A DNA stretch of 64,000 nucleotides from the human T2T-CHM13v2.0 reference genome, Homo sapiens. The notes beneath the pieces are model-generated. The model searched no databases. It was not told the DNA's origin and was given only the letters and a program-made list of their open reading frames with translations. Both the position numbers and the translations under genes were made by a program. This document shows, piece after piece, positions 31,660 to 39,322 of this stretch (position 1 is the first letter of the stretch; every line of letters starts with the position of its first letter). The stretch is from the NCBI RefSeq assembly GCF_009914755.1, contig NC_060931.1. One strand, given 5' to 3'.

Positions 31660-34600
31660 CTGTGGAAGAGAAATGGCCCCAGTTCATCACCCTTCTCTAG
31701 CCCAGCCTCATCCCGCTCCCAGACACCGGAGAGGCCAGCAAAGAAAATAAGGTATTCGGCATTCTCCTGCAGTTTTCATTTGCTACGTGGACAGAAGGGG
31801 GTGAGGAAAGGTGGGAAACGAACCTGGCTCTTAGGCTTTGTGCTGCTGTGACTTGGAGAATCAAAGAAACTAAGTCCCTGAGAGGGACAATGCAGCACCC
31901 ACCTGAACAACTATCATCCCTACAGTCTTGGATACTGACTCCAGTGGCCTCTGGCTGTCGCCTCCCACTCCAGCATGAGGGATCGGGTGCAAGCACAGAG
32001 GCCATGCAGAGTGGAGAGCAGAGAGAGTCAAGTCAGCGGGCAGTCACCTTCAGGTTCTTGACTCGAGCTGATCCCCTAGGTGCTTGCAGTTGGCTGGAAT
32101 GCCACTCCCTCAGGGATCACATCTGTGTCTAGAACTCCCAGGGACTTGGTAGGTTGTAAGTAAGGTTTGAAGATTATTGTTTTGTGCTTGTTTTAAGACA
32201 AAAACTGTCTTCATGGCCTCTGTGAACAGTCTCCCTTCATTCTGTTGGAATTTCCTGTTGACTTTTTTTATCCTGGCATACTGAGATCTTAAATGATGGT
32301 TGTTTTAGATGTTGGCCACTTGGTAGTTAGGAGGGTGTGAGAAATTATTTAATACTTCAGCCAAGAAGTCTTTCTAGACTAAATTGTTCCTTTTTTCCCA
32401 ACAGAGAAGAAGAGATGTGTCATCATTCCAGTTCTTCAACTCCATTGGCAGCAGACAAGGAGTCCCAGGGAGAAAAGGGTAGGTTGCTGAGCCAGGAGGA
32501 GGGGCTGCTGTTGGTGGTGGAGGTATTTGTGGAGGATGTAGAGATTAATACCTATTGAAAAAAGGTCTTGAGCATTGCTATGTCTAAGGCATGTTAGATA
32601 CAAAGAGAGAGATTTCCTCTCCTTCAGAAGTTTATAGTCTGATGAGGGAGAAAGGCTACAGACGGGGGCTAACGATTGGATAGAGGTAAGCTCAGTTTGA
32701 GTCACCTGTGGGTGATCCCAGTAATTACTGCACAGTAAGCGGTTTGTGTGCGCGCCTTAATCTTACAAACACCATCCAAGCAACCAAACCATAGAAGATT
32801 GAATCTTTTCAGAGATACCATCATTGAAAACTCAGTGTGAAATGCGAAGTGGGTAGACACAACCATCCATTTCTGGAAGAGGGAAGGAAGCAAACGAGTC
32901 TTGATTTCTTTCTTTAGCTGCAGATACAACCCCAAGGAAGAAACAAAACTCGAATTCTCAGTCTACACCTGGCAGCTCTGGGCAGCGTAAGCGGAAAGTT
33001 CAGCTGCTGCCTTCTCGGCGAGGGGAACAGCTGACCTTGGTATGGTCTTGTCCATCTACTCCTGCCCTCCCCGGCTTAGCTCTCCTAAGTCTTAGGAACG
33101 CTAAGGACAAGTTTCTTCTGATTTTTTTTCTAATTTATTTTTGTTTTTGTTTTTTGAGACAACATCCCTCTGTCACCCAGGCTGGAGTGCAGTGGCTCGA
33201 TTTTGGCTAACCGTAACCTCTGCCTCCTGAGTTCAAGCAATTCTCCTGCCTCAGCCTCCCAAGTAGCTGGGATTACAGGTGCTTGCTACCACGCCTGGCT
33301 GATTTTTTGTGTTTTTAGTAGAGATGGGGTTTCACCATGTTGGCCAGGCCGGCCTCAAACTCCTGACCTCAAGTGATCCAGCTGGCTTGGCCTCCCAAAG
33401 TGCTGAGATTACCGGTGTGAGCCACCATGCCTAGCCTTCCCGTTTTTTCTGATTGGCCTGACTTCTTCTTTTTCACTTTGGTAGCCTCCACCTCCCCAGC
33501 TTGGCTATTCGATCACTGCCGAGGACCTAGACTTAGAGAAGAAGGCTTCATTACAGTGGTTCAACCAGGCCTTGGAGGACAAGAGCGGTAAGGAGCACAG
33601 ATTGTTGCACACTGGAGAGGTTTCAGGTGTCTGTTTTCTTTGGTTTTATTTTGGTGTTTGAAAAAATGGGTTTCTCTGGGAAAATCCCAAGTAGGGTTCC
33701 ATGTTTTCTTGTGGTCTTTCTCACCTGAGATATCCGTGTTGGTCTTCACGGGAACTGGACAGCAGGGACCACTGCAATTTAGGGCAGGCATTCCTCCATG
33801 AGCTGTGCTGAGAGCCTGCTCTCCGACAGGCATGTGGAAAGAAGTCCCAGACAAGCCAGGACTGCTTCACCTTTCTTTCTTTCTTAGATGCTGCCTCGAA
33901 CTCTGTCACTGAGACCCCACCTATCACTCAGCCTTCATTTACCTTTACCCTGCCTGCTGCTGCACCTGCCTCCCCACCCACCTCCCTCCTGGCCCCAAGC
34001 ACCAACCCACTGTTAGAGAGCTTGAAGAAGATGCAGACTCCCCCGAGCCTGCCACCCTGCCCAGGTGAGCTGGAGTGGGGCCGTGGATCCAGCCTTCTGA
34101 GCAGCATCCCCGGCTTGGGTTGGAATAAGGGCGTCGTGCCTGTCAGTCGCTGGAGATTGCTCTGCAGGCCGAACGCACCCTGGCTCAGCACACCGGAGCG
34201 GGCCCACGTTTAACAGCGCCAGAGCCCGCATCAGGAAGTGTTAGAGAAGGGGTGCTGCGACGCTCAGGATCTGAAGCCTGGCTCGTAGCTGCCCTGAGCC
34301 TCGCCTTCCTCATCTGTCAGATGAGAATGATCTTCCCGGTGCAGCACCTCTGAAGTGTGAATGTGGTGGCGTGGTCAGGATATCCTTGCCTGTCAGAACC
34401 ACTGGTCCAGAACAGCACTGCTTCCTTTCCCTCCAGCACTTCGAGGGCTGCTGGTGTTCCCGGCCCAGGCCTTCACGGCACTGCGCGCGCACACCTCTTT
34501 ATCAGACGGTAACCTGGGGTTCGTACGCACTCTCCCTGCTCAAGGGCAGAGACTTCCCCATTCATAGTTGTGTGCTCTTAGCGCCTGGCAGGTGAGCTTA

Positions 34601-37600: not shown

Positions 37601-39322
37601 TGTGATTGTGAAGTTAAAGTGAGGCCAGTTAGCATGGCGTGTGTTTCCCAGCGACACTGTGGGTGTAGACCTAAGGTCAGCGGACAGCTGGTGCCACCCG
37701 GCCATGGAGACCCCAGCAAGCACAGCAGGAGGGGCAGCGTGTCAGTGCCCCGATGCAGCTCAGGGGGTGCAGGAGTGGAGAGCGGGTGAAGTCAGCTGCA
37801 GGAGGGGTGGTGCCTACAGGAGATTCGGGAGCCGGAGCAGTTGTGGTGACAGTGTGGCTGCAGGAGTGGTGGCAGGGGTCGGGGAGAGGAGGTCATGGGG
37901 GTGGCAGGGTCGAGGGGCTGAGAGGACCATCAGTCAGCCTCACAGGGCGAAGTCACCGTGAGTGGTGATGGGGAGGAAGCCAGTGAGCCAAGGGTCCTCT
38001 GTGAATCAGGGAGTGACCTGGCAGTTGACAGGTGACATGAGGACATGGCAGATTAAAGTGATCTGAACTTGAGTTACGGTATTTAGGGAAGGAAGAGAAA
38101 CAGTGTGGAAGCAGCGTGGGAGCACAGGGAGCTTCCTCTTGTCCGGGCCGGAGGCCAAGCCCTGAGAGCAGCCATCCCTGCAGAGGGGCTGCCAGAGAGG
38201 GCCTCGGGCAGGCAGCCAGAGCCAGTCAGGGCAAGGCCGGGGAAGGGAGGGTACCACGGGGCATCACAAAAGACGCGGGACGGACAAACCAGGCTTCAGA
38301 GGGGAGGGGACGGTGGCTGGGGGAAAAGGCCTGAACAGAGGAGGTAGCCAACCCAGGTACGCTAGGAGGCGGGGGCCCCAGAGTACTCCCCTCTGCAGCG
38401 ATGGTCAGGAGGCCCACGAGGTGGCTGCGGGGCAGGGGGGCTTTTTCTCTGCCCTGGCGTGGCCATTAGCGGGTGGGAGAAGCAGGCTGAGCTGGGGCAC
38501 CAGGCATGAAGACTCGGTTGTCTGGCTCAGCTGCTGATGGAGGAGTGCCCCAGAAGCAGAAGTGGGGCTGAGGGTCCCGTGGGAAGTGCCCTGTGGAGCA
38601 CAGGCTCCTGCCCGGCTCCTCGCTTGCCTCCGCCCTCTGCTCACTGGCTAGCTCTCTGTTCTCTTCATTCCAGGCACCGCCACCCCCACCTTTGGTCTGA
38701 ACACCCCTGCGCCTGGAGTGGGCACATCAGGCAGCAGCCTCTCCTTTGGGGCATCCTCAGCACCCGCCCAAGGCTTTGTTGGTGTTGCACCTTTCGGTAA
38801 GCAGCAAGCCACCCTGTGGCCCTGCTCGTCTGTCTGAGGAGAGGTTGGGCGGGGTGGCAGGCTCCTGGCCCTCTGAGGCCCCGTGAAGATCAGGTTCAGC
38901 ACAGGAAAGACATTTCGGGTTAGGAGTACAGCACAGCCCAGGGATGGGAGTTGGATGGCAGAGATCAGAGAGGAGCTGTCCGGGGTGGAAGTTTGCCTCC
39001 CATGGGAAGCCAGGTAAAAATGGATTCTTGGGCCTCGCTCTGAGACTCTCTGGGAGTTTGCATTTCGGGAGGCTTCTCCCGTACAGTGTTTCTGATGCAG
39101 CGGGGAAAGCCCTATTGAGGCACCCTGTGTTTTATTACTGGCCTGGCCTTCCAGAGATTTGGGCACCCAGAGCCAGAGTCTCAGGTAGCAGCTGCCCTGA
39201 TGAGGTCTTGTTGAATCTTTCCAGGATCGGCGGCCCCTTCATTTTCCATTGGTGCGGGATCCAAGACCCTAGGGGCTCGACAGCGACTGCAGGCCCGAAG
39301 GCAGCACACCCGCAAAAAGTAG
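31660..39322 (+). pseudogene. POM121B: 5'-truncated POM121 duplicate (POM121B) with an intact reading frame for the C-terminal FG-repeat region
   Basis: GT-AG exons 31660-31751, 32405-32478, 32918-33039, 33485-33587, 33888-34064, 34908-36596, 38674-38796, 39225-39322 (TAG). They splice in frame: [14 protein letters not shown]...[11 protein letters not shown]...FGFG/FTFG/FSFG repeats...RQHTRKK*. No exons for the N-terminal transmembrane region are seen upstream. Confidence 0.92.
34908..36596 (+). CDS. POM121B: POM121-type large exon (1689 bp), Ser/Thr/Pro-rich with FG repeats; open frame
   Basis: ttccag|AATCTGCTGG...TTTGGAG|gtaagg; overlaps ORF 35045..36691. Confidence 0.9.

What the first reader, a model, noticed from the sequence alone, without database searches (positions are those of the whole stretch)
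32415..39322. POM121B 'pseudogene' has an uninterrupted 791-aa frame with an in-frame ATG: potential soluble FG-nucleoporin
Seen: from ATG 32415 (gaagagATGt, purine at -3) the exon parts 64+122+103+177+1689+123+98 = 2376 nt reach TAG with no stop or frameshift, and all junctions are GT-AG. The product keeps basic clusters (PRKKQ...QRKRK, C-terminal RRQHTRKK) and the whole FG domain, but has no transmembrane anchor. As I recall, POM121 reads EEELCHH here while this copy reads EEEMCHH, so the ATG may be copy-specific. Known: transmembrane-less POM121 isoforms are nucleoplasmic. Inference: this could be a duplication-born soluble FG-repeat protein.
Basis: partly seen in the sequence, partly recalled or inferred. 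Interest (0 to 1): 0.7.

Follow-up and report, generated by a model that had tools for sequence, protein, structure and literature searches.

The report
Truncated POM121B copy, open by youth
POM121B is a copy of a nuclear-pore gene that has lost its front end; its long open reading frame and its own new start codon are real, but the frame is open mainly because the copy is almost identical to its two working sister genes, and nothing here shows that it makes a protein.

Summary
Observation confirmed. From ATG 32415, seven exon parts (64+122+103+177+1689+123+98 = 2376 nt) give a 791-aa frame with one terminal stop. All 6 introns are GT-AG. The frame has 24 FG motifs and no hydrophobic anchor. 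The ATG is copy-specific in this genome: POM121 and POM121C read CTG.

The functional reading is not supported:
- POM121B differs from its paralogs by 19 private substitutions in 9,932 aligned sites and no private indel.
- It is a mosaic of POM121-like and POM121C-like tracts: 40 runs against 96.8 expected, z = -8.2.
- With 7 exonic changes, an open frame is expected 86% of the time.
- Private changes are 5 nonsynonymous to 2 synonymous (omega about 0.9). They are not depleted in exons, whereas those of the two working genes are.
- Homology starts inside an intron at about 24600, so the promoter, the anchor exon and two further coding exons are missing.
- No CpG island lies upstream.
- A strong-context upstream ATG opens a 25-codon uORF that ends 11 nt before ATG 32415.
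- Print calls the locus inactive.

Transcription and translation could not be tested.

The parts
24598..24613 (.). Left end of homology to POM121/POM121C (truncation point of the copy). It falls inside the intron that precedes the first retained exon.
   Evidence: blastn against the fetched paralog regions starts at 24598. A genome search puts the switch at about 24604-24613, and 23806-24613 matches four other chr7 places at 97-99%.
31660..31751 (+). First retained POM121 coding exon (LWKRNG...KKIR). It is open, holds no in-frame Met, and is preceded by an in-frame TAG that is also its acceptor.
   Evidence: PF15229 positions 109-138, 34.9 bits.
31673..31750 (+). Out-of-frame upstream ORF: ATG in context agagaaATGG, 25 codons plus stop. 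In spliced RNA it ends 11 nt before ATG 32415.
32405..32478 (+). Exon that carries the copy-specific start codon.
32415..32417 (+). ATG private to POM121B in this genome. Both paralogs read CTG (a C>A transversion, not at a CpG).
32918..33039 (+). Exon with the basic clusters PRKKQ and QRKRK. These are probably NLS4 and NLS5 of the five mapped NLSs, by position.
   Evidence: PF15229 positions 164-204, 46.4 bits. The position inference uses.
33485..33587 (+). Exon that holds the end of the Pfam POM121 domain.
   Evidence: PF15229 positions 205-235, 56.4 bits.
33888..34064 (+). Coding exon, low-complexity linker.
   Evidence: No Pfam match.
34908..36596 (+). Large exon that encodes most of the FG-repeat domain.
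   Evidence: It is 99% identical to the two paralog exons.
38674..38796 (+). Coding exon, FG domain.
39225..39322 (+). Last coding exon, ending ...RRQHTRKK then TAG.
39323..41393 (+). Region homologous to the 3' UTR, up to the RefSeq end of POM121B. From 40674 it overlaps the 3' end of NSUN5 on the minus strand.
   Evidence: The hub's annotation. Homology continues at 98-99%.
41150..41720 (.). Right edge of the high-identity tract. Private substitutions of this copy rise from 0-7 per kb to 26-78 per kb.

Best explanation
POM121B is an unprocessed, 5'-truncated copy of the POM121/POM121C gene in the medial block of the Williams-Beuren duplications, tail to tail with NSUN5. It keeps 8 exons, from the LWKRNG exon to the stop. 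It lacks the promoter(s), the membrane-anchor exon and the two coding exons that carry Pfam POM121 positions 23-110. Its frame is open because its sequence has recently been exchanged with, or copied from, the two working paralogs. Each part of it is 99.0-99.9% identical to one or the other, and only 7 private exonic substitutions and no private indel have accumulated. One of those 7, CTG>ATG at 32415, happens to create a start codon. The copy most likely makes no functional protein. If it is transcribed at all, the RNA would start at a new or read-through promoter, and the strong-context uORF just upstream would hamper translation from 32415. Shown here: the structure, the copy-specific ATG, the mosaic identity, the neutral-looking substitution pattern, the missing 5' part and the uORF. 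Inferred: gene conversion as the process, the lack of expression, and poor translation.
For: Truncation:
- blastn homology to both paralogs starts at 24598.
- In a PF15229 search of the genome, POM121 and POM121C have exons for profile positions 23-51 and 51-110, at C7:74156613-74158347 and 76724789-76726509. These lie upstream of the break. POM121B has only the 108-235 matches.

Youth and mosaic structure:
- Private substitutions are 7 of 2,475 exonic sites and 12 of 7,457 other sites for POM121B. They are 14 and 78 for POM121, and 16 and 84 for POM121C. There is no private indel within 30979-40959. The gaps listed at 40960 are the uneven ends of the aligned block.
- POM121-specific and POM121C-specific sites are clustered: 40 runs against 96.8 expected, z = -8.2.
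- In 1-kb windows POM121B is 99.0-99.3% identical to POM121 at 24598-30597 and 99.5-99.9% identical to POM121C at 30598-32597. Beyond about 41.6 kb it is 5-8% from both, while they are 99-100% alike.

Open frame expected: 0.86 of 20,000 simulations with 7 substitutions keep it open.

No sign of constraint:
- Private changes are 5 nonsynonymous and 2 synonymous, omega about 0.91.
- The exon versus non-exon odds ratio is 1.76 (p = 0.29) for POM121B. It is 0.54 (p = 0.029) for POM121 and 0.57 (p = 0.037) for POM121C.

No promoter signature: no 500-bp window between 24598 and 32415 reaches GC 0.55 with CpG o/e 0.6.

uORF.

Print and annotation:
- Franks et al. [quoted passage not shown]
- PMC10766976 (passages read) calls it a pseudogene.
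- In the hub's table RefSeq lists it as 'pseudogene' without exons, whereas its neighbours NCF1B and GTF2IP4 are 'transcribed_pseudogene'.
Against: - The frame, all 6 introns' splice sites and the 3' end are intact.
- Chance creation of an in-frame ATG upstream of the first native Met (codon 179 of the retained part) has a simulated probability of only 0.014.
- The new Met lies upstream of two basic clusters. By position these fall within the mapped NLS region 266-513.
- Short-read studies assign reads to POM121B. It is one of 10 differentially expressed genes shared by ALS iPSC lines (PMC12249345). It is also an eQTL gene in GTEx oesophagus mucosa (PMC10465380). With 98-99.9% identical paralogs these assignments are ambiguous.
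- A 2026 preprint (PMC13639854, passages read) finds spliced, ORF-bearing long-read transcripts for 236 of 672 pseudogene models in segmental duplications. Its main text does not name POM121B, and its supplementary table could not be opened.
- The selection tests rest on 7 substitutions and have little power.
- Only one human haplotype was available.
Confidence: 0.75

Rival explanations
1. POM121B is expressed and translated from the private ATG into a 791-aa anchor-less protein. It would enter the nucleus through its two remaining basic clusters and act through its FG domain, for example by binding transport receptors or joining FG condensates. That would make it a third, shorter soluble POM121 form.
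For: - The frame and splice sites are intact.
- The ATG is copy-specific with a purine at -3.
- It has 24 FG motifs, the same count as the paralog tails.
- POM121 266-1249 without the anchor goes to the nucleus (Funakoshi 2011, PMC3069009). sPom121 is nucleoplasmic (Franks 2016).
- Reads are assigned to the locus in two short-read studies.
- The base rate is 236 of 672 duplicated pseudogene models with ORF-bearing spliced transcripts.
Against: - No promoter is retained and no CpG island lies upstream.
- A strong-context uORF ends 11 nt before the ATG.
- Omega is about 0.9 and exons show no depletion of changes.
- An open frame is expected anyway, with probability 0.86.
- The start is at about residue 195 of sPom121's 204-residue domain needed for Nup98 co-localisation (inferred).
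- At most 2 of the 5 mapped NLSs are kept.
- Fragment 703-1230 showed no or weak nuclear localisation.
- The literature calls the locus inactive.
Confidence: 0.1
2. The locus is transcribed from a new upstream or read-through promoter, but as a non-coding or poorly translated RNA, or with a different first exon and start. The 834-aa database model would be such a case: it needs 9 residues upstream of the LWKRNG exon.
For: - PMC8311347 Table 2 lists POM121B as 834 aa with 24 FG motifs. The retained exons give 825 aa, so that model needs an upstream exon not derived from POM121.
- Reads are assigned to the locus.
- A GC-rich SVA-like element, which RefSeq marks as an enhancer, lies 1-2.5 kb upstream of the break.
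Against: No transcript data were available. RefSeq gives no exons and does not label the locus as transcribed. I could not locate the extra exon of the 834-aa model.
Confidence: 0.3
3. The copy matters at the DNA level only. It would be a partner in sequence exchange with POM121 and POM121C, able to pass its private variants into the working genes, and part of the substrate for the non-allelic recombination behind Williams-Beuren rearrangements. This can hold alongside the best explanation.
For: - The pattern is a mosaic of tracts.
- POM121 and POM121C are only 86-93% alike in the 5' introns, yet POM121B is 99.0-99.3% like POM121 there.
- The hub's table lists a non-allelic homologous recombination region next door.
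Against: The direction of exchange cannot be read from three sequences without an outgroup. No conversion into a working gene was shown.
Confidence: 0.4

Closest known systems
POM121 and POM121C (human transmembrane FG nucleoporin genes, 7q11.23)
   Same: The last 8 coding exons have the same exon-intron structure. The retained protein part differs by 5 private residues. There are 24 FG motifs in each tail. Pfam POM121 positions 109-235 are matched.
   Different: POM121B lacks the promoter(s), the anchor exon and the exons for Pfam positions 23-110. It has ATG where both read CTG. Its exons show no depletion of substitutions, unlike both working genes.
sPom121, the soluble hominoid isoform of POM121/POM121C (Franks et al. 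2016, PMC4888837; passages read)
   Same: It is an anchor-less POM121 product with an NLS region and an FG domain.
   Different: sPom121 comes from an alternative promoter and RBAK-derived 5' exons about 40 kb upstream of the anchor exon, and it starts at an ATG in exon 5. None of these is present in POM121B. The POM121B frame would start about 194 residues further in (inferred), so it would lose almost all of the 1-204 domain needed for Nup98 co-localisation.
Database entry for a putative POM121B protein of 834 aa (listed in PMC8311347 Table 2; the UniProt accession is recalled, not retrieved)
   Same: It has the same locus and the same 24 FG motifs. So the coding potential of this 'pseudogene' is already on record.
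   Different: It is 9 residues longer than the 825 aa that the retained exons encode, so it uses another start. I found the private ATG at 32415 discussed in none of the 8 listed POM121B papers whose passages I read (5 of 8 read).
'Resurrected' pseudogenes in human segmental duplications, such as the neighbour GTF2IP4 (PMC13639854, preprint; passages read)
   Same: It is an annotated pseudogene in a high-identity duplication with an intact frame.
   Different: Those cases have long-read transcripts, accessible promoters and, for 12 of them, unique peptides. None of this is known for POM121B from what I could read.

Membership tests
POM121 family (Pfam PF15229) | Match to the family profile above the curated cut-off (27 bits) | tested here: met
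   Exon by exon: 34.9, 46.4 and 56.4 bits on profile positions 109-138, 164-204 and 205-235. Only the C-terminal 127 of 235 profile positions are present.
POM121 family (Pfam PF15229) | N-terminal part of the domain (profile positions 23-110) | tested here: not met
   POM121 and POM121C have these exons. POM121B has none, and its homology starts downstream of them.
Transmembrane nucleoporin POM121 | Single N-terminal membrane span | tested here: not met
   The highest 19-residue hydropathy mean is 1.12, and the 5' exons are absent.
FG nucleoporin | Long disordered domain with many FG motifs | tested here: met
   There are 24 FG motifs between residues 247 and 759. S+T+P+A+G make up 66.5% of residues.
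FG nucleoporin | Is made and resides at, or acts with, the nuclear pore or transport receptors | not testable with these tools
   No expression or localisation data were available.
sPom121-type soluble isoform | Own alternative promoter and 5' exons that bypass the anchor exon | tested here: not met
   No POM121 homology lies upstream of 24598, and there is no CpG island between 24598 and 32415.
sPom121-type soluble isoform | N-terminal domain (sPom121 residues 1-204), necessary and sufficient for Nup98 co-localisation | tested here: not met
   By numbering inferred from the 1,249-aa length, the 824-aa POM121 tail and the soluble start at 266, the frame starts at about residue 195 of that domain.
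sPom121-type soluble isoform | Nuclear localisation signals (five mapped in residues 266-513) | tested here: inconclusive
   Two basic clusters are kept (RKK at 28, RKRK at 45). By position these fit NLS4 and NLS5. The NLS sequences are in a figure I could not see.
Unprocessed (duplicated) pseudogene | Keeps introns and is incomplete relative to the parent gene | tested here: met
Unprocessed (duplicated) pseudogene | Frame-disabling mutations | tested here: not met
   There are none in the 825 retained codons. Given only 7 substitutions, this is expected with probability 0.86.
Unprocessed (duplicated) pseudogene | Neutral substitution pattern | tested here: inconclusive
   Omega is about 0.91 and exons show no depletion. 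This fits neutrality, but it rests on 7 changes.

The most novel reading that the evidence does not exclude
A very recent C>A change, possibly specific to humans, turned the remnant of POM121 beside NSUN5 into a translatable gene. Its product would be a 791-aa anchor-less FG protein with two NLS clusters, made from a new promoter in some tissue. Such a protein could bind transport receptors or FG condensates, or interfere with pore-dependent processes, and its dosage would change with Williams-Beuren deletions and duplications.
Probability: 0.1. Interest if true: 0.6.

Novelty: already known. Interest (0 to 1): 0.3.

Why it matters
If the copy were expressed, it would be a newborn human FG protein inside a disease-critical interval. 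Soluble POM121 forms regulate transcription (PMC4888837). By the abstract in a search listing (PMC13483366), an FG fragment of POM121C blocks HIV-1 nuclear entry. As things stand, the locus is a clear example of a caveat: an intact frame in a high-identity duplication is not evidence of function when the copy is kept near-identical to working paralogs. The private variants listed here are practical markers. They allow reads and peptides to be assigned to POM121B rather than to POM121 or POM121C. Two short-read papers already report 'POM121B' expression, and one of them describes it as a functional transmembrane nuclear-pore protein.

Tried and rejected
- Exon edges guessed by eye were 1-2 bases off and gave false stops. 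They were corrected.
Pfam membership was taken from the genome-wide family search and from single exons given by reference.
- A PDB sequence search with the NLS exon found nothing at E up to 10, so no solved importin complex could be tied to these clusters.
- A literature search for the recalled UniProt accession returned one unrelated paper.
- Funakoshi 2007, the source of the 'inactive' statement, is not held. I know it only through Franks 2016.
- Read-through of the intron upstream of 32405 gives no Met before a stop. The ATG at 31640 is in another frame. Neither explains the 834-aa model.
- I considered that the B-to-POM121 similarity in 24598-30597 showed conversion of POM121 by POM121B. 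POM121 and POM121C are equally diverged (86-93%) upstream of the break, so the direction stays open.
- Papers on sheep and dog place POM121 in the same region as NSUN5, TRIM50 and FKBP6. That fits POM121B sitting at the ancestral position but does not prove adjacency. The mouse gene order is only recalled.
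Full report
WHAT IS THERE

The window is human chr7 (T2T-CHM13), according to the hub's table. From ATG 32415 the parts 32415-32478, 32918-33039, 33485-33587, 33888-34064, 34908-36596, 38674-38796 and 39225-39322 add up to 2376 nt. They translate to 791 aa with only the terminal stop. All 6 introns are GT-AG. Searches used edges 1-2 bases off and are superseded.

One more POM121 exon lies upstream, at 31660-31751. 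It is open in the same frame but has no Met, and an in-frame TAG precedes it. The retained coding part is therefore 825 codons, and the ATG is codon 35 of it.

The product would have 24 FG motifs, basic clusters at residues 28, 45 and 789, and no hydrophobic span: the highest 19-residue mean is 1.12. Single exons match Pfam POM121 (PF15229) at profile positions 109-138, 164-204 and 205-235.

IS THE ATG COPY-SPECIFIC?

Yes, in this genome. A search of the window's own genome with the large exon finds three copies on chr7: this one, one at 74.17 Mb (+) and one at 76.71 Mb (-), both 99% identical to it. There are also distant POM121-like loci on chr6 and chr15. I fetched 40 kb around each paralog. 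Both read CTG where this copy reads ATG, so the paralogs have EEELCHH and this copy has EEEMCHH.

I call the 74.17 Mb copy POM121 and the 76.71 Mb copy POM121C from their order on the chromosome. That naming is my inference, not a tool label.

HOW MUCH OF THE GENE IS LEFT?

Homology to both paralogs begins at 24598 and is refined to about 24604-24613. The 0.8 kb to the left of this point matches four other chr7 duplicon sites at 97-99%.

A genome-wide PF15229 search shows exons for profile positions 23-51 and 51-110 in both paralogs, upstream of the point that corresponds to the break. This copy has none. So the copy lacks every promoter, the anchor exon and two further coding exons.

Between 24598 and 32415 no 500-bp window looks like a CpG island. 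The only GC-rich stretch nearby is 21982-23110. It is a tandem array followed by (AGAGGG)n at 23482-23524, which looks like an SVA element on the minus strand. That identification rests on recalled SVA structure.

WHY IS THE FRAME OPEN?

In a three-way alignment of 30979-40962, covering 9,932 ungapped sites, the substitutions private to each copy are:

| Copy | Exonic (of 2,475 sites) | Other (of 7,457 sites) |
|---|---|---|
| This copy (POM121B) | 7 | 12 |
| POM121 | 14 | 78 |
| POM121C | 16 | 84 |

This copy has no private indel. The gaps listed at 40960 are the uneven ends of the block.

The sites where POM121 or POM121C stands alone are strongly clustered along the sequence: 40 runs against 96.8 expected, z = -8.2. 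Identity in 1-kb windows is:

| Window range | Pattern |
|---|---|
| 24598-30597 | This copy is 99.0-99.3% identical to POM121; POM121C is 91-97% |
| 30598-32597 (holds the ATG) | This copy is 99.5-99.9% identical to POM121C; POM121 is 96-97% |
| 32598-41597 | All three are 97-99.7% alike |
| Beyond about 41.2-41.7 kb (NSUN5 body) | This copy is 5-8% from both; they are 99-100% alike |

POM121 and POM121C are only 86-93% alike in the 5' introns upstream of the break. The POM121 part of this locus is therefore a patchwork of recently shared tracts inside older, diverged flanks. This is the signature of sequence exchange between the copies. The direction of exchange cannot be read without an outgroup.

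With only 7 exonic substitutions, 0.86 of 20,000 simulated histories keep the frame open.

IS THERE ANY SIGN OF SELECTION ON THIS COPY?

No. The 7 private exonic changes are:
- 31662, synonymous
- 32415, L>M
- 35032, K>N
- 35123, A>T
- 35315, T>S
- 36280, synonymous, at a CpG
- 39270, P>L

. That is 5 nonsynonymous to 2 synonymous over 1816 and 659 sites, an omega of about 0.91.

Exons are depleted of lineage-specific changes relative to non-exon sequence in POM121 (odds ratio 0.54, p = 0.029) and in POM121C (0.57, p = 0.037). They are not depleted in this copy (1.76, p = 0.29). The numbers are small, so this fits neutrality without proving it.

HOW UNUSUAL IS THE NEW ATG?

In the inferred earlier state, 27 codons upstream of the first native Met (codon 179, in LKKMQ) are one step from ATG. 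A new in-frame upstream ATG together with an open frame arose in 0.014 of simulations. That is uncommon, but the question was posed after seeing the ATG.

Would 32415 be used? In any RNA that includes exon 31660-31751, the first AUG is at 31673. It sits in a strong context (G at -3, G at +4) and opens a 25-codon out-of-frame uORF that stops 11 nt before AUG 32415. From general knowledge of scanning and reinitiation, such a short gap should make initiation at 32415 inefficient. This is an inference.

WHAT WOULD THE PROTEIN BE LIKE?

The numbering below is inferred from three figures: 1,249 aa for POM121 (PMC8311347 Table 2), the 824-aa POM121 tail, and the soluble form 266-1249 (PMC3069009). 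On that numbering the new Met corresponds to about Leu-460.

Funakoshi et al. 2011 (passages read) map five NLSs to residues 266-513, four of them within 266-494. They find that 266-1249 enters the nucleus, while 703-1230 does so weakly or not at all. The two retained clusters would fall at about 486-490 and 503-507, so at most two of the five NLSs remain.

Franks et al. 2016 (passages read) find residues 1-204 of sPom121 necessary and sufficient for co-localisation with Nup98. This frame would begin at about residue 195 of that domain. The product would therefore not be a small sPom121. It would be mostly an FG domain with a short basic leader.

WHAT IS IN PRINT?

The search for 'POM121B' found 9 papers, of which 8 were listed. 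I read passages in 5 of them.
[quoted passage not shown] That paper is not held.
- PMC10766976 calls it a pseudogene.
- PMC8311347 lists it among FG-rich human proteins as 834 aa with 24 FG motifs. Its coding potential is therefore already recorded, with a start 9 residues upstream of the retained exons that I could not locate.
- Two short-read studies report POM121B as differentially expressed or as an eQTL gene. Given 98-99.9% identity to the paralogs, these assignments are weak evidence.
- A 2026 preprint finds ORF-bearing spliced long-read transcripts for 236 of 672 pseudogene models in duplications, and names the neighbour GTF2IP4. They may bear directly on this claim.

VERDICT

The best reading is an unselected, truncated copy whose frame is open because it is young or homogenised (confidence 0.75). 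A functional soluble FG protein is not excluded (about 0.1). Low-level, mostly non-productive transcription is plausible (about 0.3). A role as an exchange partner for the working genes is compatible with all of these.

Noticed in passing
window 41150-49931 (NSUN5 and beyond), compared with L008-L015: Past the 3' end of POM121B, this locus becomes 5-8% diverged from the flanks of POM121 and POM121C (the NSUN5 pseudogene copies). Those two flanks are 99-100% identical to each other. In the POM121 5' introns the pattern is reversed: the two working genes are only 86-93% alike. The duplicated blocks are therefore a patchwork of very different ages.
   Followed up: partly
window 21982-23524: A GC-rich tandem array (periods 37-49 and 156-176, GC up to 0.80) is followed by (AGAGGG)n at 23482-23524. 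It looks like an SVA retrotransposon on the minus strand. The RefSeq 'enhancer' 22617-23207 lies inside its repeat array.
   Followed up: partly
window 23568-23809: A 242-bp stretch just right of the SVA-like element's hexamer end is 100% identical to chr12:101822839-101823080. It may be sequence carried along by the retrotransposon from a source locus.
   Followed up: no
window 36067 and 36256 (large FG exon): The two working paralogs differ from each other and from this copy by in-frame indels. POM121C has 6 extra bases at 36067, and POM121 lacks 3 bases at 36256. This copy carries neither change. The FG domain tolerates length changes.
   Followed up: no
window 35840-36340: A RefSeq 'enhancer' feature lies wholly inside the FG-coding exon, which is 99% identical in three loci. 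The assignment of that signal to this copy may be ambiguous.
   Followed up: no
literature (PMC12249345): [quoted passage not shown] The truncated copy cannot encode the transmembrane protein.
   Followed up: partly
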